Positions 32,067-55,463 of a stretch of 64,000 nucleotides of DNA are shown piece by piece. The position numbers were made by a program, and so were the translations under genes. The notes beneath the pieces were generated by a model that saw only the letters and a program-made list of their open reading frames with translations, did no database searches and was not told the DNA's origin. Origin of the DNA: Candidatus Aminicenantes bacterium (lineage in GTDB: Bacteria; Acidobacteriota; Aminicenantia; Aminicenantales; Saccharicenantaceae); contig CAWECI010000025.1 in assembly GCA_963807525.1 (NCBI GenBank), positions 95,056 through 159,055 on the forward strand, read 5' to 3'. Within the stretch, counting starts at the first letter, position 1; the number at the start of each line of letters is the position of its first letter.

Positions 32067-32657
32067 ATGGGAGCTCCGACGAGAGCGAACGAGCAACCGG
32101 AGGATGCCGTCCTCGTCCGGAAAGCCCAGCAGGGAGACATGGACGCTTACGAGAGCCTGGTCCGGAGATACCAGCAACGGGTCTACGCCCTGTGCCGCCG
32201 TCTGACCGGCGCGCACCAGTCGGCGGACGACCTGGCCCAGGAAACGTTCATCAAAGCTTATTTCGCGCTGGCCCGCTTCGACGCCCAATGGCCGCTCTAT
32301 CCCTGGCTTCGGAGGATCGCCGTCAACACCGGGCTGAACTACCTCAAGACCCGGGGCCGGGAAAGGTCCCTCGAGGACGGCCCGGCCGACGGCCGGCGCC
32401 TGCCGCCGGCCCCGGCGACCGACGATCCCGTGGATCGGCTCGAAAGCGCCGAATTCCAGGCCAGGCTCGACTGGGCGGTGGATTCCCTTCCCGCCGACCA
32501 GAGAAGCGTCTTCGTCCTGAGATTCCATGAGAGCCTGAGCTACGAGGAGATCGGAAGGACCCTCGGACTGCCGCTCGGCACCGTCATGTCGCGGCTGAAC
32601 CGGGCCCGCCAGAAGCTGAAAGAGCTTCTCGCGGATTCCCTCGGAAGGGGAGCTTGA
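32067..32657 (+). CDS. ECF RNA polymerase sigma factor
   Basis: ADDLAQETFIKAY, WLRRIAVN, LSYEEIGRTLGLPLGTVMSRLNRAR. Confidence 0.93.
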   Translation: MGAPTRANEQPEDAVLVRKAQQGDMDAYESLVRRYQQRVYALCRRLTGAHQSADDLAQETFIKAYFALARFDAQWPLYPWLRRIAVNTGLNYLKTRGRERSLEDGPADGRRLPPAPATDDPVDRLESAEFQARLDWAVDSLPADQRSVFVLRFHESLSYEEIGRTLGLPLGTVMSRLNRARQKLKELLADSLGRGA

Positions 32658-32658
32658 G

Positions 32659-33657
32659 ATGAGACACCGCAAACTCCAGGAACTCATCGGGGCCTACGCC
32701 GATGGCGAGCTCCGGCCGGCCGACCGGCCGCGGGTGGAGAAGCATCTCAAGCGCTGCCCGGACTGCCGGCGGGACCTCGAGTTCATCCGCCGTCTTTCGA
32801 AACTCGCCGAGACGCCTCCGACGGGACCTCAGGACAGGGACTACTGGGACTCTTTCCCCGGACGGGTCCGGGCCGGGATCGCCCGCGAGCTGGCCGGAGC
32901 CCCCGCACCCCAAGTTGCGGAGGACAAGATGTTCAAAGACTCATTCTTCCAGCCGGAACCGCGGACACGGCAGAGGGCCCTGCTCCTGCCGCTGTCCGTC
33001 ATCGGCCATGCGGTCGTTCTGATCCTGCTCATCATGCTGCCCCTTCTCAAGATGGGGCAGCTGCCGACGGTCGAGGTCTATAGCGCGTTCCTGGCGCCCC
33101 CGCCGCCGCCCCCGCCGCCTCCGCCGCCGCCGGCCAAGCGGAAAGCGTCGGCGCAAAGCGCCCGGATCAAGCGCGTCCAGGCCGCCGCGCCGACCGAGGC
33201 CGGCCGCCTGGTGGCCCCCGTCGAGATCCCCGAACAGATCGCTGAGGAAACGCTCTCCGACGTCGGCGTCGAGGGCGGTGTCGAAGGCGGCGTCGAGGGC
33301 GGCGTCGTCGGCGGCGTTCTCGGAGGCGTTGTGGGCGGCGTCCTGGGCGGCGTCGTCGGCGAGGTCGAGGCGCCGGTGCGGGCCATCGGCGACGTCAAGC
33401 CGCCGAAGCTCGTGCGGGAGGTGGCGCCGGTCTACCCGGAGATCGCCCGGCAGGCCCGGGTGGAGGGCATCGTCATCGTCGAGGCGACGACGGACGTCTA
33501 CGGCCGGGTGACGAGCGTCAAGGTCCTGCGCTCGATCCCGCTCCTGGACCAGGCGGCCATCGACGCGGTGCGGCAGTGGGTCTACGAGCCCATGATCATC
33601 AACGGCCGGCCCCGGCCGGTCGTCTTCACCGTCACCGTCCGGTTCCAGCTGAAATGA
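32659..33657 (+). CDS. Zinc-finger anti-sigma (zf-HC2) - TonB fusion protein
   Basis: AYADGEL..HLKRCPDC (HxxxCxxC); then MFKDSFF, TM with SVIGH (SxxxH), poly-Pro, GGV repeats, TonB_C. Confidence 0.88.
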   Translation: MRHRKLQELIGAYADGELRPADRPRVEKHLKRCPDCRRDLEFIRRLSKLAETPPTGPQDRDYWDSFPGRVRAGIARELAGAPAPQVAEDKMFKDSFFQPEPRTRQRALLLPLSVIGHAVVLILLIMLPLLKMGQLPTVEVYSAFLAPPPPPPPPPPPPAKRKASAQSARIKRVQAAAPTEAGRLVAPVEIPEQIAEETLSDVGVEGGVEGGVEGGVVGGVLGGVVGGVLGGVVGEVEAPVRAIGDVKPPKLVREVAPVYPEIARQARVEGIVIVEATTDVYGRVTSVKVLRSIPLLDQAAIDAVRQWVYEPMIINGRPRPVVFTVTVRFQLK

Positions 33658-46745: not shown

Positions 46746-46807
46746 AAATGGGGACGCTTCTATTTTTCCCTTCAGAGGACTCTGGAAAAATAGAAGCGTC
46801 CCCATTT
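46746..46807. repeat. Perfect 24-bp inverted repeat, 14-nt loop
   Basis: aaatggggacgcttctatttttcc / ggaaaaatagaagcgtccccattt. Confidence 0.88.
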
Positions 46808-46862: not shown

Positions 46863-46890
46863 TAAACGCGTTATAAGGGACGGGCGTAAT
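46863..46890 (+). promoter_or_regulatory. Putative ECF autoregulatory promoter (AAAC-N17-CGTAAT), leaderless
   Basis: Resembles SigW/X-type AAAC/CGT boxes; ends 5 nt before the ECF ATG. Confidence 0.4.
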
Positions 46891-46895
46891 CTCCG

Positions 46896-47468
46896 ATGGA
46901 ACAAGGGACAAGGCCTCCCGTGGACGAAAAGGACATCATCGAGGGCTGTCTGCGGGGGAGCCTCGCCGCGGAGAAAGCGATGGTCGACGCCTATGGGACG
47001 CTGGTGCTTTCGGTCGCTCTCAATGTCCTGGCCAACAGGGAGGATGCCGAGGACGTCTGCCAGGAGACATTCCTCCAGACCTTCCGGCATCTCGACCGCT
47101 ACGACCGGGAGCGGAGCTTCAAGACCTGGCTCCTGACCATCGCCTACAGGAGATCGCTCGACACGCTCAGAAAGCGCAGGCGGTTCAGGGAATTCGCCGT
47201 CCGGGCCGCGTCCGCGGAGGCCGCGGCCTCTGAGCGGGAGGATCCCGGCCCGGGATCGCCTGCCCCCCTGCCGTCGAAGCTGCTCGAGACCCTGTCGCCG
47301 CGCGAGCGGACGGCGCTCTGCCTGTGGGCCAACGAGGGCTACGCGGCCAAGGATATCGCCGAGGTCCTGTCGTGCTCAGCCTCCACAGCCCGCGTCAACC
47401 TCTTCAACGCCCGCCGCAAGGTCAAGGCCCTCCTGGAGAATGATCATGGACTTCTGCAACACGGTTGA
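46896..47468 (+). CDS. ECF RNA polymerase sigma factor
   Basis: EDAEDVCQETFLQTF, SFKTWLLTIAYRR, YAAKDIAEVL..STARVNLFNARRK. Confidence 0.92.
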   Translation: MEQGTRPPVDEKDIIEGCLRGSLAAEKAMVDAYGTLVLSVALNVLANREDAEDVCQETFLQTFRHLDRYDRERSFKTWLLTIAYRRSLDTLRKRRRFREFAVRAASAEAAASEREDPGPGSPAPLPSKLLETLSPRERTALCLWANEGYAAKDIAEVLSCSASTARVNLFNARRKVKALLENDHGLLQHG

Positions 47469-47922
47469 TCTCCTCTATCGCGCCGTCCCGGTGCCGCGGT
47501 TCCGGGACTGGCTCATCCGGGCCCATATCGAGCGGTGTCCCGGCTGCCAGGCCCGGCTGCTCAGCCGGGATGAGGCCCTGAGCCTGCTCGTCCGGCCGTC
47601 CGACCTCGGCGCCATCGACCGCCTCTGGCCGTCGATCTCCCGGCGCGCCGGTCGGGCCCCGGTCGTCGCCGAACCGACGATGGGACGGGGATCTTATGTC
47701 TGGCGCTGGGCGGCTGTGCCGGCCATGGTCCTGGCCGTGACCCTTTCTGGCTTCTGGCTTCTCCGTCAAGTCGAACGATCGACGTCCGGCGCGGCCCTCG
47801 CGGCCTCGACTCCGCGCTTCGAGCTCGACTATGTCAACGTGGGCGGCGCGCCCGCCCAGACTTTCGTCTATCAGCCCCAGGGGACGGATACCGTCTTTGT
47901 CTGGGCTTCGAAGGCTCCCTGA
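47446..47922 (+). CDS. Putative zinc-binding anti-sigma factor (HxxxCxxC, single TM)
   Basis: HIERCPGC; TM WAAVPAMVLAVTLSGFWLL; overlaps the ECF 3' end; alternative start 47440. Confidence 0.78.
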   Translation: MDFCNTVDLLYRAVPVPRFRDWLIRAHIERCPGCQARLLSRDEALSLLVRPSDLGAIDRLWPSISRRAGRAPVVAEPTMGRGSYVWRWAAVPAMVLAVTLSGFWLLRQVERSTSGAALAASTPRFELDYVNVGGAPAQTFVYQPQGTDTVFVWASKAP

Positions 47923-47936
47923 AAAGGAGGAGTGAC

Positions 47937-49631
47937 ATGAAAACGATGAAAGACCTCATGATCTTGGGGATCGTCGTTCTGGGCCTTTCGGCTCTGGGCT
48001 CGACCGTGGCCCGAGCCGAAAATAGCCCGGGACAGGCCTTGAAGGGATCCGCGACGATGTTCGAGCTCAAGATGAGGATCCTCGAAGGCAGCCGGGAAGC
48101 GCCGGGCCAGCCGTCCAAGCCGGTCACGGCCTCATTCCTGAAATTCCAGAACTTCATAAACTTCGATACCCCCGAGGACGTCCAGGTCGAGGCGCAGATC
48201 AAGAAGCTCTACAACCTTAAGGGGCTAGGCCTGATGACCGAAGCGCCGCTCGTTTGGGAGAAGGGCAAGTCCGAGAAGGCCCTCCATATGTTCCGCCTGA
48301 ACGGCCAGGAATACCTGGTCCTGGTGACCCCGGGACGGCTGATCGATAAGAACCAGTTCCGGATCGAGGTGTACGAGCAGGCCGGAGAACAAAAGACGAA
48401 TCTTCTGGACACGGAGTTCTCCCTGCCGGACAAGAGCGCGGCTGTGTTCGGCTTCGAGAACACACAGGACAAGCCCTATTTCATCACGTTGAGGATCTCC
48501 GCCTGGGGAGGGGTCCTTGGCGGAGTGGTCGGTGGCGTTGTCGGTGAGCCTACAGGCGGCGTCGTCCCCGGGGTCCTGAAATCCGGAGCCAAGGTCATGC
48601 CGCCTAAGCTCGTCAAGCAGGTCGATCCTATCTATCCGGAGATCGCTCGGCAATCCAAGGTGGAGGGCATCGTCATCCTCGAGGCCACGACCGATACTTA
48701 TGGACGGGTCGCGAACGTCAGGATCCTGCGCTCGATCCCGCTTCTCGACCAAGCGGCCATCGACGCGCTCCGCCAGTGGGTCTATGAGCCGATGGTCGTC
48801 GAGGGCAAGCCCGAGCCTGTGACCTTTACCGTGACCGTGCGGTTCGCCCTGGATGAGAAGAAGCCCGAGGTCGGCGGGGTGGTCGGGGGGGTCCTCGGCG
48901 GCGTCCAAGGTGGGGTCTCCGGCGGGGTCAAGGGCGGTGTCCAGGGTGGGGTTGAAGGCGGAGTCTCCTCGGTCACTTTCGGCGCCCTTGATATCCAAGC
49001 CTATAAGGAATTCGAAGGCGACGCTGTCCGGGCCGTCGGCGATATCAAGCCGCCCAGGCTCATCAAAGAGGTCGCCCCCGTTTATCCCCTCAAGGCCCGC
49101 CAGGGACAAGTTGAAGGGATCGTCATCCTCGAAGCCAAGGCCGACGAGCAGGGCACCGTCGTCGATGCCCGGATCCTGCGCTCCATCCCGCTCCTCGACC
49201 AGGCCGCGATCGACGCCGTCAAGCAGTGGAAATACGAACCCCTGATCATCAATGGCAAGGCCCGCCAGGTTATCTTCACGGTGACGGTCCGGTTCATGCT
49301 CAAGGAAGGGGACCAGGCCAAGACCATCGAGAAGTTTGCGGCCGGCGCGGTCAAAGCCGCAGGCGAGATCCAACCCCCTAAGCTCATCAAGGAGGTCGCG
49401 CCGGTCTATCCCGAGGTGGCCCGTGTCGCCGGTGTCCAGGGCGTGGTCATCCTGAGCGTCAAGGCCGATGAGACCGGCAAGATCGTGGACGCCATGATCT
49501 TGCGTTCCATCCCGCTGCTCGACCAGGCGGCCATCGACGCGGTCAAGCAGTGGGTCTACGAGCCGACGATCATCGACGGCAAGGCCGTGCCTATCGTCTT
49601 CACCGTGACCGTCCGCTTCCAGCTCAAGTAG
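47937..49631 (+). CDS. Exported protein with three tandem TonB_C domains
   Basis: SD AAGGAGGAG; signal peptide ending VARA; about 190-aa N-domain; three PPxLxKxVxPxYP..RSIPLLDQAAIDA units; GGV repeats. Confidence 0.88.
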   Translation: MKTMKDLMILGIVVLGLSALGSTVARAENSPGQALKGSATMFELKMRILEGSREAPGQPSKPVTASFLKFQNFINFDTPEDVQVEAQIKKLYNLKGLGLMTEAPLVWEKGKSEKALHMFRLNGQEYLVLVTPGRLIDKNQFRIEVYEQAGEQKTNLLDTEFSLPDKSAAVFGFENTQDKPYFITLRISAWGGVLGGVVGGVVGEPTGGVVPGVLKSGAKVMPPKLVKQVDPIYPEIARQSKVEGIVILEATTDTYGRVANVRILRSIPLLDQAAIDALRQWVYEPMVVEGKPEPVTFTVTVRFALDEKKPEVGGVVGGVLGGVQGGVSGGVKGGVQGGVEGGVSSVTFGALDIQAYKEFEGDAVRAVGDIKPPRLIKEVAPVYPLKARQGQVEGIVILEAKADEQGTVVDARILRSIPLLDQAAIDAVKQWKYEPLIINGKARQVIFTVTVRFMLKEGDQAKTIEKFAAGAVKAAGEIQPPKLIKEVAPVYPEVARVAGVQGVVILSVKADETGKIVDAMILRSIPLLDQAAIDAVKQWVYEPTIIDGKAVPIVFTVTVRFQLK

Positions 49632-50013
49632 GGGAGGGCCCGCCGACTTTCTTCAGGCTCAGGATCCAATCCTCGAGGACCTTGATTGAGGCCGGGCCCA
49701 GAGCCTTGGTCGGAGGCATCCTGTCGCCTTTGATGCCCTTCTCGCCGCGGACCTTCTTCAGGACGTAGCTCGACTCGGGCGCGGCCGTGTCGATGATCTT
49801 CAGCGAGGGAACCTCCCGGCTCGGGGCGTCGATCGCCGCCTCGATCTTCTTCGCTTCCCAGCTCAGGCCGCGCGGGGGGAACTTGCCGTGGTGACAGTCC
49901 AGGCAATTCTTGGCGAAAACGGATGCGACCTCGCCTGGCACCTTGATCTGGGCCCACGCTCCCATGGCAGCGATGGCGAGAAGGGCGAGACCCGCGGGCA
50001 AGATCTTCTTCAT
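49624..50013 (-). CDS. Monoheme c-type cytochrome (planctomycete cytochrome c-like)
   Basis: Signal peptide; single CLDCH; RMPP distal Met; IKVLEDWI. Confidence 0.82.
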   Translation of the reverse strand: MKKILPAGLALLAIAAMGAWAQIKVPGEVASVFAKNCLDCHHGKFPPRGLSWEAKKIEAAIDAPSREVPSLKIIDTAAPESSYVLKKVRGEKGIKGDRMPPTKALGPASIKVLEDWILSLKKVGGPSPT

Positions 50014-50064
50014 GGGCGGCTCCTTGGCCGGTGCGGGACGCCTGCCCGTCCAGAACTCTCCGGC

Positions 50065-50859
50065 TCATCCCTTCGGGGTATATTTATACTCGGATCCGAG
50101 CAGGCTGTGGGGGATCAGAAAGACGATGAGCGTGACGAGCGAGGCCGCGATGACCAGCGGCCGGACCGGCTTGCCCTTGCGGCCGGCGATCCAGGCCGCG
50201 ACCCAGAACAGGAACGCGATGAGCGTCTTGTTGTCGGTCAGGTCCATGCCCGCCGGGAAGCCGGCCCAGGCGACGCCGAAGGCGAACTTCTGGACCAGGG
50301 GCCCGAGCACGAAGCCGCCGAGGAAAAGAAAAGCGAGCGTCCAGAGCGTCAGCCGGCGCGGGTCCCTCTTCTTGTCGATCGCGGCCAGGCCCGCCGCTGT
50401 CGCCAGGAGCATGCCGGCGAACATGACCAGGGCATGGGGGATCAGGAGGCCCAGCGGGACCGGGTCCTTGAAGCGAACGACCGCCGGGGCCTCGCCGGTC
50501 ACCGTCTTCGATTCGCCCGCGTTCGTCAGGACGATCCGATAGGCGATCTTGCCGGCGGCCGGCTGCTGAGGGAGGCTCCCGACGAGCCGGTCGTCTTGCC
50601 GGATGAGCGCCGAGCCCGCCCACGCGTCCGTCGTCCCGACCCGCTGCCACTCGACCCGGCCTTCGATCGGCGCCGGCGCCAGCAGGGCCAGCTTGGCGTC
50701 CGCTCCGGTGTCGGCGCTGCGCGGCAGTCGGTACTTGATGTCCACGCCGCCGACCGCGGCCTGGCCCCTGATCGGGTAGGTCGGCCCCGTGACGCGCTGA
50801 TAGACCGCCGAGGCCAGGGTGACGACGACGGCCAGGGTCCAGAACAGGCCTTTTCGCAT
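50065..50859 (-). CDS. Hypothetical membrane protein
   Basis: YQRVTGPTYP N-terminus; four C-terminal TMs; IPHSLLGSE. Confidence 0.8.
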   Translation of the reverse strand: MRKGLFWTLAVVVTLASAVYQRVTGPTYPIRGQAAVGGVDIKYRLPRSADTGADAKLALLAPAPIEGRVEWQRVGTTDAWAGSALIRQDDRLVGSLPQQPAAGKIAYRIVLTNAGESKTVTGEAPAVVRFKDPVPLGLLIPHALVMFAGMLLATAAGLAAIDKKRDPRRLTLWTLAFLFLGGFVLGPLVQKFAFGVAWAGFPAGMDLTDNKTLIAFLFWVAAWIAGRKGKPVRPLVIAASLVTLIVFLIPHSLLGSEYKYTPKG

Positions 50860-50864
50860 GTCGC

Positions 50865-51557
50865 CTACCCTTTGACTTCGATCGAGCCGAGCACGGCCGA
50901 TCCGTGGATAGTCAGCGTCGCCGACGTCGCCCCTTCGGCCGCCGGCTTGTGGTTCTCGATCGAGCCGAGCACCGGGGTGCCCTGGAGGGCGACCTGCCAG
51001 TCGCGGGGCACGAAGACCGTGATGCTGCCGAAGACGACGGACAGGACGAGCGTGGCCTGTCCGCCGGCAAGCCGGGCGTTCCGCAGATCGATGTCGGCCG
51101 AGCCGAAGACGATGTCGGCCTTGCCGCCGCGGAAGTTCTGGGATTCGATCCTGTGGACCTGGCCCGAGAAGACCTGGTTGACGGAAAGATCGTCCCCGGC
51201 GGTCATCTCAGGTAGTTTTTTTTTGTCCGGATGCCAGGCCGGCCGCAACAGGACCCACAACCCGACGGCGATGATGGCCAGCGGCCAGACGTAGTGCCAG
51301 ACCGCCCGGTCGAAGATCCTCAGCCTAAGAAGCAGGAAGAACGTGCCGAACAGGATGAAGAAGACGGCCGAGCCCACGTTCCGGAAGTTGTTGCTGAACA
51401 GGATGGAGACGCCGATGAGGATGAAGAGAACCGGCCAATAGCGGCCGACGAGGTCGCCGAAATCCACGCGGCCCATCTGGTCCAGCAGGAAGAGGACGCC
51501 CAGAAGGATCAGCAGGAGGCCCCAAAAGATGCGGCCCTGGTTCTTGTGCTCTCTCAT
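50865..51557 (-). CDS. LiaF/LiaI-like cell-envelope stress membrane protein (DUF5668 + DUF2154-like)
   Basis: RIFWGLLLILLGVLFLL, YWPVLFILIG; FRGGKADIVFGSADIDLR, VFGSITVFVPRDW. Confidence 0.82.
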   Translation of the reverse strand: MREHKNQGRIFWGLLLILLGVLFLLDQMGRVDFGDLVGRYWPVLFILIGVSILFSNNFRNVGSAVFFILFGTFFLLLRLRIFDRAVWHYVWPLAIIAVGLWVLLRPAWHPDKKKLPEMTAGDDLSVNQVFSGQVHRIESQNFRGGKADIVFGSADIDLRNARLAGGQATLVLSVVFGSITVFVPRDWQVALQGTPVLGSIENHKPAAEGATSATLTIHGSAVLGSIEVKG

Positions 51558-52429: not shown

Positions 52430-54441
52430 TCCTCCTCGACGATGGTCCGGTCATTCCGATAATCGGCCCAAACGGATTCGAACCAGCCTTCCGGGTGGGG
52501 GATCGGCCGCACCGGGACCCATCTCTTCTCGGGCAGTCCCTGGCCGTCCACGCGGATCTCGAGAATGTGCGAGGAGACGAAGTCCGCCGGCGCGGCCAGC
52601 GAAAAGGCCCACGGCGTCCCGAGCATGGAGTGGGGGATCGTCCCGGCCGTGTCGGGAACGAGATAGGACCCCCGGCTCTTCCCGCCGCGCCCGAGGTACT
52701 CGTCGATGGCTTCGAGATAGACGGCCTGGGTCAGGGCCAGGCCCAGAGCCTGGAAGCCTCGGGGCAGGTCGCGGGCCGAGGCGACGCCGATGTCCCGTCG
52801 GGCCCTGAGCCACAGCCCGCGGGCCCGCGTCTTTTCGAGGCGCACCTGGCCCGGGTTCCGGACGACCGCGCCGCAGGCCGACATGCGCCGCCGCACTTCC
52901 GCCAGGCAGGCCTCCGGGGTCAGGGCGTTCGACCGGAGATCGAGCATGGCCTCGGCCTGACGCCACTTCCCGAGGACGAGCGGGGCCGCGGCCCGGGCGA
53001 AGTCGGGTTCCGGCAGGGGCCCCCCGGCGCGCTGGCGCGAGATGAACAGCGCGGCCCGGGCGGCGCCGACCTGCCCGGCGTTGAGCGCCGAGCCGCCCGG
53101 CCTGGTCACGCCGTGGGTGCCGCAGAGCTCGCCGACCGGGAAGAGTCCGCGGAGGCTGGACTCCCACCAGATCGAGCCCCGGAAACCGCCGTTGTTGTGC
53201 TGGGCGCAGACGGCGATCTCCAGCGGCTCGCGGCGAAGGTCGATGCCGTGGGCCCGGTAGAGCTCGACGGCCGGAGGGTTCATCCGGATCAGGCGCGCGA
53301 TCGGCGTCGGCCGCAGCGCGTCCGACTTCTCGAGATAGGCCGCGGCCTCGGGGCCGAGCTGTTTCGGCTCGAACGGCCGGAGGCGGCCGTCGCCGCGGGC
53401 GTCGCTCCGGAAATCGAGGAAGACCCGGCGGCCTTTGACCACGGTCTCGTTATAGACGATGAGGTCGATGAGCGACGATCCGCCGTCGACGGCCCGCCGC
53501 GGGTCGAACGGCCACTGGTAGCCTTTGAGGAAGACGGCCGTGGCCAAGGCGCCCATGTCCGAGAAGTAATCGTTGAGGAACTCCCGCGGGTCCTTGCCCG
53601 CGGCGTCGGTCGAGATATAGCGGGGCACCGCCTGCTGGTAGCTTCCGGAGACGTTCCAGCGGAACTTGGTCGAAGCCAGGCCGAACTGGGATTCGGTCAG
53701 GTTCTGGGCCACGGCGCCCGCCTCGAAGAGCAGCCCGTGCGACCCGGCCTGGCTCTCCGGATAGACCGAATGCTCATACAGGCCCCCCGGGCCGCCCGTG
53801 GCCGCGACGACATTCGCCGCGTTGAAAAGGACGAAACCGCGGTCCGGCCGTCCGAGCTTCCGGGTATCGAGGGCCAGGGCGCCGATCGCCTTCTTGGCCA
53901 CCCCCCGGCCGGATGTGAGCAGGGCGATCACCGCGTGTCCGTCGAAGGTCCGGATCCTCCGCCGCTTGACCTCCCGGGCCAGGGCTTCGAACATGAGCTT
54001 GGAGGTCAGCGGCCCGGCCGAGGTGGCCCGCTGGCGCGGATCGTGGTCGGTCTTGTAGCCGACATAGGCGCCGAAGCGATCGTGAGGGAACGGCACACCC
54101 AGGCCGACGAGGTGGAAAAAGGCCTCGAGCGAACCCTGGGCTTCGACGAGAGCGATATCGCCGTGCATGGAGCCGCCGGCGGCCAGGTCGCAAGCCATGT
54201 CGGCGGCGGAATCGGGCACGTCGCCGGCCAGCGAGAGCTTGTAGTAGGTCTGCTTGTCGGAGCCGGATTCGGCCGAAGCTCCCGTTCCGAGCCGCTCGGT
54301 GACGATGGCGATGTCGGTCTGCCCGAGCTCGTGCAGACGGACGGCCGCGTTGAGCCCGGCCGCCCCGCTGCCGATGATGAGCGTGTTCAGGGAGTGGACC
54401 GGGAAGGCCCGCCCGCCGATCCGGACCTGGCCCGATCTCAT
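52426..54441 (-). CDS. FAD-binding protein, SdhA/FrdA/NadB flavoprotein superfamily
   Basis: IIGSGAAG, SGSDKQTYYK, GYKTDHDP..RATSAGP, ATGGPG, CAQHNNGG, GELCGTHGVTRPGGSALNAGQVG; ATG 54441 overlaps the upstream stop. Confidence 0.88.
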   Translation of the reverse strand: MRSGQVRIGGRAFPVHSLNTLIIGSGAAGLNAAVRLHELGQTDIAIVTERLGTGASAESGSDKQTYYKLSLAGDVPDSAADMACDLAAGGSMHGDIALVEAQGSLEAFFHLVGLGVPFPHDRFGAYVGYKTDHDPRQRATSAGPLTSKLMFEALAREVKRRRIRTFDGHAVIALLTSGRGVAKKAIGALALDTRKLGRPDRGFVLFNAANVVAATGGPGGLYEHSVYPESQAGSHGLLFEAGAVAQNLTESQFGLASTKFRWNVSGSYQQAVPRYISTDAAGKDPREFLNDYFSDMGALATAVFLKGYQWPFDPRRAVDGGSSLIDLIVYNETVVKGRRVFLDFRSDARGDGRLRPFEPKQLGPEAAAYLEKSDALRPTPIARLIRMNPPAVELYRAHGIDLRREPLEIAVCAQHNNGGFRGSIWWESSLRGLFPVGELCGTHGVTRPGGSALNAGQVGAARAALFISRQRAGGPLPEPDFARAAAPLVLGKWRQAEAMLDLRSNALTPEACLAEVRRRMSACGAVVRNPGQVRLEKTRARGLWLRARRDIGVASARDLPRGFQALGLALTQAVYLEAIDEYLGRGGKSRGSYLVPDTAGTIPHSMLGTPWAFSLAAPADFVSSHILEIRVDGQGLPEKRWVPVRPIPHPEGWFESVWADYRNDRTIVEEE

Positions 54442-55463
54442 CGGATCGTTCGTCCTTTCAGCGCCGGGGAGGCCAGGAGCGCCGTCGCGGCCAGGAACAC
54501 GAGGCCGAAGACGGTCCAGGCGTCGGTCGCGAAGAAGAGCACGCCGCAGGTGATGATCCACAGGAACCCGAAATAGATCCACCAGCTTCTCTTGAAAAAG
54601 AGGACGCCGACGAGGATGAGGGTCAGGGCCAGGAAACCGGCCAACGCCGCGCGCAGGTCGGCCGTTTCCTTGATGATCAGGCCGGCGTAGATCGCGGGGA
54701 CGAACAGCCACAGCCCCCGGCGCTTCCTCAGGGTGATCAAGAGGGCCGCCCCCAACGCCGCGGCAGCGAATCCGAAGGTGGCCACGGCCTCGAGCCAGCC
54801 GGGGGGACCGGGCCGCCGTCCTTCCGCCAGCCTCTCGATCCTGACCATCATCGTCCTCTCCATGACGAAATGGGCCGGTTCGAGGAGCCAGAAACTGAAC
54901 AGGCGCCCTATGATCCCGGGCGGCGGACCGCCCCGGCTTCGGGCGTAGAACCGCGTCCCCCCGTCGGCCGTCGGCTCGAGGGCGAACGTGCCCCAGTTCC
55001 TGAGCGTCAGGGACTCGCCGGGCGCCACGAAGGCGACCTTCCAGCCCGGCAAGAACGTTTTTTTTGGCAGGCCGAACAGATAATCCGGCTTGACGCCGCG
55101 GACGAGGTCCTTGGCCTGCCGCGTCTGCCACTCCGGCCGGATCGCATAAGTATTGTGGATGTCCGCGAGGGTCAGGTTCTCGAGCCAGGTGTGGCTGTAG
55201 AAACCGGCCCGGTCCTGGCCGATCTGGATAAGCCATTCCCAAACCTTCGTCGGCGGCGCTTTGACGGTGATGGCCCGGGTGCCGGTGACGACGCCGCCGA
55301 TCCAGGCGTCGTCACCGAGCACGGCCCGCGTCCGCTCCTGCGGCGTCGTTCCCCAATTGGCGAAAAAGGGACGGGCCAGGAGGGAATAGGCCGCGATGGC
55401 GGCCAGGATAATAACGAAGGACGTGCCCGTGATCACGAGCCAGGTCCTCTCGGCCTTGTTCAT
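54438..55463 (-). CDS. Membrane protein with SRPBCC-like domain
   Basis: WGTTPQER, TRAITVKAPPTKVWEWLIQIGQDRAGFYSHTWLEN, HFVMER; C-terminal TMs. Confidence 0.75.
   Translation of the reverse strand: MNKAERTWLVITGTSFVIILAAIAAYSLLARPFFANWGTTPQERTRAVLGDDAWIGGVVTGTRAITVKAPPTKVWEWLIQIGQDRAGFYSHTWLENLTLADIHNTYAIRPEWQTRQAKDLVRGVKPDYLFGLPKKTFLPGWKVAFVAPGESLTLRNWGTFALEPTADGGTRFYARSRGGPPPGIIGRLFSFWLLEPAHFVMERTMMVRIERLAEGRRPGPPGWLEAVATFGFAAAALGAALLITLRKRRGLWLFVPAIYAGLIIKETADLRAALAGFLALTLILVGVLFFKRSWWIYFGFLWIITCGVLFFATDAWTVFGLVFLAATALLASPALKGRTIR

What the first reader, a model, noticed from the sequence alone, without database searches (positions are those of the whole stretch)
46896..49631. Second ECF-ZAS operon with a soluble triple-TonB_C protein
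Seen: ECF, an overlapping HxxxCxxC single-TM anti-sigma with a small periplasmic domain, then a protein with an AxA-type signal peptide (no SxxxH anchor), an unknown N-domain and three TonB_C repeats. Inference: if cleaved it cannot be energised by ExbBD, so it may be a periplasmic TonB-box sensor or adaptor whose N-domain contacts the anti-sigma. This would be the split version of the fusion at 32659.
Basis: partly seen in the sequence, partly recalled or inferred. Interest (0 to 1): 0.72.

Follow-up and report, generated by a model that had tools for sequence, protein, structure and literature searches.

The report
Sigma switch controlling exported TonB-domain protein
An uncultured Aminicenantes bacterium has a conserved three-gene unit (an alternative sigma factor, its membrane inhibitor and an exported protein carrying three copies of the TonB docking domain with no link to the TonB motor) that seems to switch on only itself, so it looks like an undescribed envelope signalling or feedback device, not a nutrient-uptake part.

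Summary
Window 46896-49631 holds an ECF sigma gene, an overlapping zinc-type single-pass anti-sigma gene, and a 564-aa protein (T3). T3 has a signal-peptide-like N-terminus, a family-specific beta-rich N-domain with no Pfam or PDB match, and three TonB_C domains.

The three genes co-occur. Across two partly overlapping samples, 12 of 13 and 36 of 37 loci with enough upstream DNA carry the same sigma directly upstream. The module is confined to class Aminicenantia.

New here:
- A conserved ECF promoter (TAAAYG-N16-CGTAT) precedes the operon in all 13 loci examined. It is the only convincing site in the genome, so T3 is the sigma's only visible output.
- The most conserved part of the anti-sigma is its 35-residue periplasmic tail.
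- T3's TonB_C domains are 65-75% identical to the cell's working TonB.
- In other lineages the same operon slot holds N-domain + TonB_C + an intact M23 cell-wall peptidase.

My best reading is an autoregulated module whose exported, motor-less TonB_C protein is both the output and a probable periplasmic partner of the anti-sigma tail, in a titration feedback loop. No contact was tested.

It is not an evolutionary split of the fusion at 32659. The closest described analogue is VreA/VreI/VreR of Pseudomonas. I class it as a new variant of a known kind.

The parts
46863..46890 (+). ECF-type promoter: TAAACG (46863-46868), 16-nt spacer, CGTAAT (46885-46890)
   Evidence: The same two-block motif lies 35-82 nt upstream of the sigma start in all 13 loci. 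It is the top PWM hit in the whole genome at 23.3 bits, and the next-best hits lack the CGTA block.
46896..47468 (+). ECF sigma factor (ECF2). The longest ORF starts at ATG 46896. The start is probably GTG 46920.
   Evidence: Sigma70_r2 and r4_2, TIGR02937. Orthologue N-termini align from MDEKEII. Single copy in the genome, with the next paralogue at E 2e-20.
47446..47922 (+). Zinc-type (ZAS) single-pass anti-sigma factor, 158 aa (160 aa if read from ATG 47440)
   Evidence: C4, H27, C31 and C34 are invariant in 40 homologues. 241 homologues, all about 158 aa and without Pfam domains. Secondary structure is 4 short helices + 1 helix + a long TM helix + 3 strands, in a low-confidence model.
47524..47547 (+). 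HxxxCxxC zinc motif of the anti-sigma factor
   Evidence: Read directly from the sequence. Invariant in the family.
47707..47763 (+). Transmembrane helix of the anti-sigma factor (W90-L108, numbered from 47440)
   Evidence: Hydrophobic stretch in the sequence. Long helix H84-113 in the model.
47815..47919 (+). Periplasmic tail of the anti-sigma factor, RFELDYVNVGGAPAQTFVYQPQGTDTVFVWASKAP. It is the most conserved part of the protein and ends in the TonB-box-like DTVFVWA.
   Evidence: Nearly invariant in 40 homologues. Still recognisable in distant orthologues that have lost the zinc motif. Three predicted strands.
47937..48017 (+). Signal-peptide-like N-terminus of T3 (aa 1-27, ARA|EN)
   Evidence: n-h-c layout. 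Least conserved segment (0.53). No His.
48048..48506 (+). Family-specific N-domain of T3 (aa 38-190)
   Evidence: No Pfam or NCBIfam match. AF2 pLDDT 81, pTM 0.76, one helix plus eight strands. No PDB fold match, best TM 0.33. 153 clusters at 50% identity. Found only in class Aminicenantia.
48507..48599 (+). Gly-Gly-Val-rich linker 1
   Evidence: Read from the sequence. The same (GGVx)n linker precedes the TonB_C domain of the housekeeping TonB.
48600..48851 (+). TonB_C domain 1
   Evidence: Pfam PF03544. Genome scan hit C25:143682-143906. 75% identical to the housekeeping TonB C-domain.
48852..49049 (+). Long (GGVx)n linker 2
   Evidence: Read from the sequence. Its length varies among homologues.
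49050..49301 (+). TonB_C domain 2
   Evidence: 68% identical to the housekeeping TonB C-domain.
49374..49631 (+). TonB_C domain 3 and stop codon
   Evidence: 65% identical to the housekeeping TonB C-domain.

Best explanation
This is a self-contained, autoregulated ECF sigma module.

Shown:
- The sigma factor sits next to a zinc-binding, single-pass anti-sigma factor.
- Both are co-transcribed, with translational coupling, with a third gene, T3.
- The sigma's promoter type (TAAAYG-N16-CGTAT) occurs only in front of this operon. Activation therefore yields more sigma, more anti-sigma and T3, and T3 is the only non-regulatory product.
- T3 has the features of a Sec-exported protein without a membrane anchor that could engage ExbB/ExbD.
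- T3 consists of a lineage-specific beta-rich N-domain and three TonB_C domains copied, linker included, from the housekeeping TonB.

Inferred:
- The TonB_C domains bind the same kind of exposed beta-strand ligands as TonB does (TonB boxes of outer-membrane transporters, or a similar strand), without transmitting force.
- Free T3 docks on the anti-sigma's almost invariant 35-residue periplasmic tail and protects it.
- When T3 is drawn away to its envelope targets, the tail is exposed, the anti-sigma is degraded and the sigma makes more T3 until free T3 returns.
- This is a titration feedback loop of the RseB/RseA or CpxP/CpxA type, built from a soluble piece of the Ton system as in VreA.

In sister lineages the variable C-terminal part of T3 is an M23 cell-wall peptidase. 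The constant core (N-domain + first TonB_C) is therefore probably the targeting and regulatory part, and the rest the cargo.
For: Gene content and junctions.

Co-occurrence: an ECF2-like sigma lies directly upstream in 12/13 species-representative genomes. Nine of those also have a detectable anti-sigma homologue, and the other three have a divergent one with the same tail. The sigma is also upstream in 36/37 loci of a second, partly overlapping sample that have at least 1 kb of upstream DNA. Only these three genes are conserved around the locus.

Promoter: the motif is present in 13/13 loci. It is the only convincing site in the 3.86-Mb assembly by regex and by PWM. A class-wide scan shows no excess over the reversed-pattern control, and the operon site is recovered in G167, G207 and G177.

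Export.

Descent of the TonB_C domains: 65-75% identity to the housekeeping TonB C-domain against 25-34% to other TonB_C proteins of the genome, with a shared (GGVx)n linker. PDB sequence hits are all TonB C-domains.

Partners exist: 7 Plug-domain transporters and 5 ExbD homologues in the genome.

Anti-sigma tail: it is the most conserved segment, and it is retained even where the zinc motif is lost.

Modular family: M23, STN/FecR_C, Poly_export/SLBB and PD40 tails, with the M23 variants keeping the same operon.

Tandem TonB_C arrays also form the periplasmic part of BlaR1/M56-type sensors in related genomes.
Against: - No physical contact between T3 and the anti-sigma was tested, and co-occurrence is equally explained if T3 is only the regulated cargo.
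- Signal-peptide cleavage is inferred from sequence rules, not from a trained predictor or from protein data.
- The 'regulon = operon' claim rests on a motif search in an assembly that is 85% complete. A second promoter class, or degenerate sites, would be missed.
- The N-domain has no recognisable fold relative, so its role is a guess.
- The anti-sigma model has low confidence (pLDDT 59).
Confidence: 0.42

Rival explanations
1. T3 is cargo only. It is simply the effector of a small ECF stress regulon, as oatA is in the Bacillus sigV-rsiV-oatA operon. It would be an envelope tether or remodelling protein that is aimed at outer-membrane proteins or peptidoglycan by its TonB_C domains. The anti-sigma tail would sense something else (a ligand or a site-1 protease) and never touch T3.
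For: The operon is the only promoter target. Orthologous operons encode an M23 peptidase with intact HxxxD and HxH motifs in this position. Other members carry Poly_export/SLBB, PD40 or CarboxypepD_reg modules typical of envelope proteins.
Against: This does not explain why a non-enzymatic core (N-domain + TonB_C) is the invariant part while the 'effector' modules come and go. It also does not explain why the anti-sigma tail is more conserved than its sigma-binding domain across the same set of genomes.
Confidence: 0.3
2. The tail is a TonB-box mimic. The anti-sigma's C-terminal strand (DTVFVWA) acts as a built-in TonB box that is held by one of T3's TonB_C domains, not by the N-domain. Genuine TonB boxes exposed on ligand-loaded transporters compete T3 away and so trigger the switch.
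For: DTVFVWA fits the classical (D/E)-T-h-h-V-x-A TonB-box pattern (textbook knowledge). It shares the h-x-V-x-A register with this genome's own boxes DIVVTA, VEITVTA and EEITVTG. TonB_C binds its partners by strand addition. The same idea was raised independently for a homologous locus (e1-1205664), but that is a lead, not evidence.
Against: In distant orthologues the D-T is lost, and the conserved hallmark is a Trp (…IFIWA, …TIVWF, …VVIWV), which is not a TonB-box feature. A 7-residue beta-strand match is weak statistically. The idea leaves the conserved N-domain without a role.
Confidence: 0.13
3. T3 is an anchored TonB paralogue. The N-terminal helix is an uncleaved anchor, and T3 is a multi-headed TonB energised by ExbB/ExbD.
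For: The uncharged N-terminal span is about 19 residues, long enough to cross a membrane. The linkers (32, 65 and 28 residues) could span the periplasm.
Against: There is no conserved Ser/His motif. The fusion at 32659 has S-x3-H, and both stand-alone TonBs of the genome have a His in the helix. The segment is the least conserved part of T3. There is no proline-rich spacer and no exbBD beside the operon. One homologue has a canonical lipobox, and some have a GWxTD domain after the helix.
Confidence: 0.06

Closest known systems
PUMA3 cell-surface signalling system of Pseudomonas aeruginosa: VreA-VreI-VreR (PMC2729926)
   Same: An ECF sigma factor and a membrane sigma regulator are paired with a soluble, signal-peptide-bearing periplasmic protein instead of an outer-membrane transducer. 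That protein has an N-terminal domain proposed to contact the regulator and a TolA/TonB-like C-terminal domain proposed to contact an outer-membrane partner.
   Different: - The VreA N-domain is an STN signalling domain; here the N-domain is an unrelated beta-rich fold.
- VreA has one remote TolA-like domain; T3 has three close copies of the cell's own TonB_C.
- VreR is FecR-type; here the anti-sigma is a short-tailed zinc type.
- The gene order differs.
- VreI controls many genes and does not induce vreA; here the operon appears to be the only target.
FecI-FecR-FecA type cell-surface signalling (review PMC9249621)
   Same: An ECF sigma/anti-sigma pair is coupled to Ton-system parts, with signalling through periplasmic strand-exchange domains.
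   Different: There is no TonB-dependent transducer in the operon, no FecR domain in the anti-sigma, and no need for an energised TonB. STN/FecR_C-like domains appear only in some T3 relatives, and there they follow the TonB_C domain.
RseA-RseB (sigma E) and CpxP-CpxA feedback logic in E. coli (textbook knowledge)
   Same: A periplasmic protein encoded with, or induced by, the system could bind the membrane regulator and be titrated by envelope ligands.
   Different: No sequence or fold relation: no MucB_RseB or CpxP match. Those regulons are large; this one seems limited to the operon.
TonB energy transducers and multi-domain TonB_C proteins (B. thetaiotaomicron TonB9 and TonB10; PMC10350073)
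   Same: They carry Pfam TonB_C domains, sometimes two per protein, and sometimes attached to signalling modules such as M56/BlaR1. That paper states that TonB proteins with extra domains have not been characterised.
   Different: T3 has no anchor motif, no proline-rich spacer and no exbBD neighbours. It has a signal peptide, a new N-domain and a dedicated sigma/anti-sigma pair.
ZAS-TonB fusion and its sigma at window 32067-33657
   Same: Same genome and same idea of wiring a TonB_C domain to an ECF switch. T3 domain 1 is 75% identical to the fusion's TonB_C.
   Different: The fusion keeps the TonB anchor (S-x3-H) and the proline spacer. Its sigma is only 24% identical to ECF2, and the anti-sigma parts share only the zinc motif. 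The two are distant paralogous designs, not a split pair.

Membership tests
ECF (group 4) sigma-70 factors | Regions 2 and 4 only, about 190 aa | tested here: met
   PF04542 at 4e-20 and PF08281 at 5e-9, both above their cut-offs. TIGR02937 scores 81.8 bits against a 42.9-bit cut-off.
ECF (group 4) sigma-70 factors | Autoregulated promoter with an AAC-type -35 and a CGT-type -10 | tested here: met
   TAAAYG-N16-CGTAT is conserved upstream in 13/13 loci. Function is inferred and was not measured.
Zinc-binding (ZAS) class I anti-sigma factors | H-x3-C-x2-C plus an upstream Cys/His ligand in an N-terminal helical domain | tested here: met
   C4, H27, C31 and C34 are invariant in 40 homologues. 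Four N-terminal helices are predicted. Zinc binding was not tested.
Zinc-binding (ZAS) class I anti-sigma factors | Match to curated family models (zf-HC2, NCBIfam anti-sigma) | tested here: inconclusive
   zf-HC2 gives E 0.11 and 13 bits against a 22.2-bit cut-off. NF052375 gives 4e-7 and 30 bits against a 100-bit cut-off.
Zinc-binding (ZAS) class I anti-sigma factors | Encoded directly after, and coupled to, its sigma gene | tested here: met
   A 23-29 nt overlap in the window. The same order holds in the orthologous loci.
TonB energy transducer | N-terminal membrane anchor with the conserved Ser/His motif that engages ExbB/ExbD | tested here: not met
   Signal-peptide-like segment with no His, and the least conserved region of the family. 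The genome's real TonBs and the fusion do have a His in the helix.
TonB energy transducer | Proline-rich periplasmic spacer | tested here: not met
   No proline-rich stretch. The spacers are (GGVx)n linkers and a 150-residue globular N-domain.
TonB energy transducer | C-terminal TonB_C domain | tested here: met
   Three PF03544 stretches, 5e-58. PDB sequence hits are TonB C-domains.
TonB energy transducer | Binds TonB boxes and transduces proton-motive force | not testable with these tools
   Needs biochemistry.
Cell-surface signalling (FecIRA type) | TonB-dependent transducer with an N-terminal STN domain, plus a FecR-type regulator | tested here: not met
   No Plug, STN or FecR domain in the three window proteins. 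No transporter gene is conserved beside the operon.
VreA-like soluble CSS receptor | Signal peptide + N-terminal domain + TolA/TonB-like C-domain, encoded with an ECF sigma and its regulator | tested here: met
   The architecture and gene linkage are met. This is an analogy of design. Homology of the N-domains is not met, because the fold is beta-rich and not STN.
RseB/MucB periplasmic anti-sigma binders | MucB_RseB (LolA-like) domain | tested here: not met
   No Pfam match. No PDB fold match above TM 0.33.

The most novel reading that the evidence does not exclude
The TonB_C/TonB-box strand-exchange pair has been taken out of energy transduction and reused as a transcription switch. The anti-sigma factor ends in its own TonB-box-like strand. 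A sigma-inducible, soluble, trivalent copy of the cell's TonB docking domain holds that strand. The real TonB boxes exposed by ligand-loaded outer-membrane transporters compete for the docking domains. The cell would thereby read the overall occupancy of its TonB-dependent transporters without a dedicated signalling domain on any of them.
Probability: 0.13. Interest if true: 0.8.

Novelty: new variant of a known kind. Interest (0 to 1): 0.55.

Why it matters
ECF sigma/anti-sigma pairs are a major class of bacterial signalling devices, and for most groups the input is unknown. Here a whole bacterial class (about half of the sampled Aminicenantia genomes) keeps a compact module in which the only visible output is an exported protein built from copies of the TonB docking domain without the motor.

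If the feedback or partner-switch reading is right, TonB_C is a general periplasmic strand-capture module for signalling. Three observations would then make sense together:
- VreA of Pseudomonas;
- the uncharacterised BlaR1/M56-TonB_C proteins of Bacteroides and Acidobacteriota;
- the anti-sigma-TonB fusion in the same window.

The module is small enough (three genes and one promoter) to rebuild in a laboratory strain, so the question can be tested directly.

If instead T3 is only cargo, the finding is a new family of sigma-controlled envelope proteins, some of them cell-wall peptidases, aimed by TonB_C domains.

Tried and rejected
- Foldseek of the confident N-domain model against PDB gave no match with E <= 0.001; the best had TM 0.33 and the rest were scattered lipocalin, C2 and TbpB hits. 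The fold stays unassigned.
- A profile search of PDB sequences found only TonB C-domains.
- The AF2 model of the anti-sigma had pLDDT 59 and pTM 0.22. That is too poor for a fold search, so none was run.
- No complex of the anti-sigma tail with T3 could be predicted.
- I looked for a 'Rosetta stone' fusion. N-domains that start at residue ~125 turned out to follow a GWxTD domain, not an anti-sigma. The apparently long ORFs in L039 and L051 are frame artefacts or a frameshifted anti-sigma, not fusions.
- The other promoter-like hits (for example C25:31973, before a 921-aa exported protein, and C2:17394) have the wrong spacing or lack CGTA. They number no more than the reversed-pattern control, so I rejected them as regulon members.
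It worked with A1.
- Literature searches found no paper on soluble multi-TonB_C proteins in ECF operons.
Full report
**What is there**

Three co-directional ORFs fill window 46896-49631.

The first is an ECF sigma factor: Sigma70_r2 4e-20, Sigma70_r4_2 5e-9, TIGR02937 4e-23. Its longest ORF starts at ATG 46896. Orthologues begin at a conserved MDEKEII, which matches GTG 46920.

The second ORF overlaps the first by 23-29 nt. The ATG at 47446 has GGAG 7 nt upstream and matches the 158-aa gene calls of homologues. It encodes:
- a Cys...His-x3-Cys-x2-Cys motif;
- one transmembrane helix;
- a tail of about 50 residues.

Curated models match it only below their thresholds. However, the four zinc-ligand positions are invariant in 40 homologues.

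The third ORF (T3, 564 aa) starts 14 nt after the anti-sigma stop, behind a GGAGG. It has:
- an n-h-c/ARA|EN N-terminus;
- 150 residues that match no family model;
- three TonB_C domains (PF03544, 5e-58, three stretches), joined by (GGVx)n linkers.

**Who has it**

Database names place the hits in Candidatus Aminicenantes.

The N-domain found 302 proteins in the 90%-clustered collection and 153 clusters at 50% identity in the exhaustive search. Among species-representative genomes it occurs in 13 of 27 genomes of the same class. It occurs in none of about 270 other genomes of the phylum.

The family plan is signal peptide, N-domain, then one to four TonB_C domains (61, 39, 18 and 5 clusters respectively). 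Optional additions are:
- an N-terminal GWxTD domain;
- C-terminal Peptidase_M23, STN/FecR_C/GspD-N0, Poly_export+SLBB, CarboxypepD_reg+LOR or PD40 modules.

**Gene linkage**

In 12 of 13 representative genomes, the N-domain gene is directly preceded on the same strand by a sigma gene closer to ECF2 than to ECF1. In 9 of those, a detectable homologue of the anti-sigma lies between the two. The 13th locus is a broken copy.

The three loci without a detectable anti-sigma hit do have a small single-pass ORF in the gap. That ORF has lost the zinc motif but keeps the C-terminal tail pattern.

A second sample from the genome collection overlaps the first in part. There, 36 of 37 loci with at least 1 kb of upstream DNA have the ECF2-like sigma, and 34 have the anti-sigma. 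The exception is a truncated remnant.

No other neighbouring gene is conserved.

**Promoter and regulon**

All 13 loci carry TAAAYG, a 15-17-nt spacer (16 nt in 12 of the 13), then (C/A)GTAT, 35-82 nt before the sigma start. In the window this is 46863-46890. This is the usual ECF layout of an AAC-type -35 and a CGT-type -10 (established knowledge of ECF promoters).

- In the window's own 3.86-Mb assembly, a regular-expression scan finds five matches. Only the operon site has the consensus spacing and -10.
- A position-weight scan ranks the operon site first at 23.3 bits. Nothing convincing follows.
- A class-wide pattern scan shows no more hits than the reversed-pattern control. It recovers the operon sites of G167, G207 and G177.

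As far as an 85%-complete assembly allows, the sigma's regulon is its own operon. That makes T3 the only non-regulatory output.

**Is T3 exported and motor-less?**

No trained signal-peptide predictor was available, so this rests on sequence rules and comparison.

- The N-terminal 27 residues are the least conserved part of the family. Majority-residue frequency is 0.53, against 0.82 for the N-domain and 0.83 for each TonB_C.
- Over 251 homologues, 96% have a basic n-region, the median hydrophobic core is 11 residues, and only 12% have any His there.
- One cluster has a canonical lipobox.
- Some relatives have a whole GWxTD domain between this segment and the N-domain.
- By contrast, the fusion at 32659 has S-x3-H in its helix and a proline run. 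Both stand-alone TonBs of the genome have a His in the helix.
- T3 has no proline spacer.
- None of the genome's five ExbD genes lies in C25, the contig that holds the window.

I take export as likely (about 85-90%) and ExbBD coupling as unlikely.

**What the parts look like**

The N-domain folds with confidence (pLDDT 81, pTM 0.76) into one helix plus eight strands. Nothing in PDB resembles it (best TM 0.33), and a sequence profile finds only TonB C-domains.

The three TonB_C domains are 75, 68 and 65% identical to the C-domain of the housekeeping TonB. That TonB C-terminal half is itself identical to that of the fusion at 32659. The T3 domains are only 25-34% identical to the other TonB_C proteins of the genome.

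The (GGVx)n linker is shared with that TonB. Each unit therefore looks like a copy of 'linker + C-domain' of tonB. The genome has seven Plug-domain transporters, so TonB boxes are available as ligands.

**The anti-sigma tail**

The most conserved stretch of the anti-sigma is not its sigma-binding domain. It is the last 35 residues, RFEIDYVNVGGAPAQTFVYQPQGTDTVFVWASKTP, predicted as three short strands.

The pattern survives in orthologues that have lost the zinc motif. Such conservation of a very short periplasmic tail argues for a specific partner.

The last strand, DTVFVWA, fits the classical TonB-box pattern. It shares the h-x-V-x-A register with this genome's boxes DIVVTA, VEITVTA and EEITVTG. 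In distant orthologues, however, the Asp-Thr is lost and a Trp is the invariant feature. I therefore hold the mimic idea at low odds.

**M23 variants**

In L017, L022 and L026 (three genomes of another family of the class), the same sigma/anti-sigma operon ends in signal peptide + N-domain + one TonB_C + Peptidase_M23. Their Pfam E-values are 2e-32 to 2e-34, and the HxxxD and HxH motifs are intact.

The constant part of the third gene is thus N-domain + TonB_C. What follows is exchangeable: more TonB_C copies, a cell-wall endopeptidase, a Wza-like module and others. This supports two statements:
- the protein works in the periplasm;
- it is a product the sigma is meant to deliver.

**How it most likely works**

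Shown:
- the operon structure;
- its conservation;
- its private promoter;
- the export features;
- the descent of the TonB_C copies.

Inferred:
- T3 binds TonB-box-like strands without force.
- T3 also docks on the anti-sigma tail and shields it from proteolysis.
- Titration of T3 by its envelope ligands exposes the tail, releases the sigma and restores the T3 level.

I give this 0.42. The rivals are:
- cargo only, 0.30;
- tail as a TonB-box mimic held by a TonB_C domain, 0.13;
- energised, anchored TonB paralogue, 0.06.

In related genomes, tandem TonB_C arrays also form the outer part of BlaR1/M56-type membrane sensors (compare B. thetaiotaomicron TonB1 and TonB10, PMC10350073). This lends some support to a sensory use of the domain in this lineage.

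**Relation to the fusion at 32659**

ECF2 and ECF1 are 24% identical, and ECF1 ranks only 13th of the 18 hits to ECF2 in the genome, counting ECF2 itself. The two anti-sigma parts align only over the zinc motif (32% over 72 residues, E 7e-4). T3 has an N-domain that the fusion lacks, and the fusion keeps a TonB anchor that T3 lacks. They are two separate designs on one theme, not a fused and a split form of one system.

**Comparison with known systems**

The nearest described design is PUMA3 of P. aeruginosa. VreA is a soluble, signal-peptide-bearing periplasmic protein. It has an N-terminal domain thought to contact the sigma regulator VreR and a TolA/TonB-like C-domain thought to contact an outer-membrane partner (PMC2729926).

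The differences are substantial:
- a different N-domain fold;
- three close TonB copies instead of one remote TolA-like domain;
- a short-tailed zinc anti-sigma instead of FecR;
- a self-limited regulon.

T3 is not a TonB. Two defining features, the anchor motif and the proline spacer, were tested and not met. I found no paper that describes this family.

**Earlier notes of this scan**

Homologous loci in three other genomes were already examined: e1-1205664, e1-689554 and e1-1166691. Those agents reached similar readings, including the titration idea and the M23 variants.

I found the M23 variants and reached the feedback reading before I read those notes. Even so, they are AI notes on the same family and are not independent evidence. 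The pointer to VreA came from e1-689554, and I checked it in the paper.

**Verdict**

This is a real, conserved, lineage-wide module. It is a new variant of ECF and cell-surface-type signalling that uses soluble TonB_C domains. The mechanism is unproven but directly testable. Interest 0.55.

Noticed in passing
window 46750-46803: A perfect 20-bp-arm palindrome (GGGGACGCTTCTATTTTTCC ... GGAAAAATAGAAGCGTCCCC) lies in the divergent intergenic region between the PAS-GGDEF gene and the sigma gene. The 20-mer occurs 7 times in the genome (the two arms here plus one each on C12, C13, C15, C16 and C20), and its 11-mer core occurs 32 times. It is therefore a REP-like dispersed element and not an operator specific to this operon.
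   Followed up: partly
genome contig C33:~8100-10000 (outside the window), minus strand: A 613-codon open frame encodes a protein with a signal peptide and an N-terminal stretch that starts like the T3 N-domain (VHVRLALFRGKW... against FELKMRILEG...). It also has one divergent TonB_C and an unassigned C-terminal region of about 300 residues. No ECF sigma was found on that 16.6-kb contig. It may be a distant orphan relative of the family.
   Followed up: partly
loci L054, L057, L060, L064, L072, L080 (related Aminicenantes genomes); L067, L082, L084, L088 (other Acidobacteriota): These are BlaR1/M56-type membrane proteins (HELSHIxxxD) whose periplasmic C-terminus is a tandem array of two or three TonB_C domains close to those of T3. 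This is a third way in which the lineage wires TonB_C to a signalling device.
   Followed up: partly
window 32659-33657 and genome C16:~53950-54746: From LPTVEVYSAF to the end, the C-terminal half of the stand-alone TonB on contig C16 is letter-for-letter identical to that of the anti-sigma-TonB fusion in the window. An exbD gene follows the C16 tonB.
   Followed up: no
loci L034 and L036 (same MAG, CAVTOI01): One genome carries two complete copies of the sigma/anti-sigma/T3 module on different contigs.
   Followed up: no
window 46896-46920 and 47440-47446: The longest-ORF starts are probably not the real ones. Orthologue alignment favours GTG 46920 for the sigma, and the Shine-Dalgarno spacing favours ATG 47446 for the anti-sigma. 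If ATG 46896 were used instead, the transcript would be nearly leaderless, because the -10 block ends 5 nt before it.
   Followed up: partly
window 49624-51557, minus strand: Three genes converge on the end of the operon: a small cytochrome-c-like gene (weak PF13442 match) that overlaps the T3 stop by 8 nt, a multi-pass membrane protein with no family match, and a LiaF-like gene (LiaF-TM 2e-24, LiaF-like_C 4e-10). None is conserved next to the module in other genomes.
   Followed up: no
locus L051 (CAWDSL01): The anti-sigma gene of this orthologous operon appears frameshifted after its zinc motif. This is either an assembly error or a natural loss of the inhibitor.
   Followed up: no
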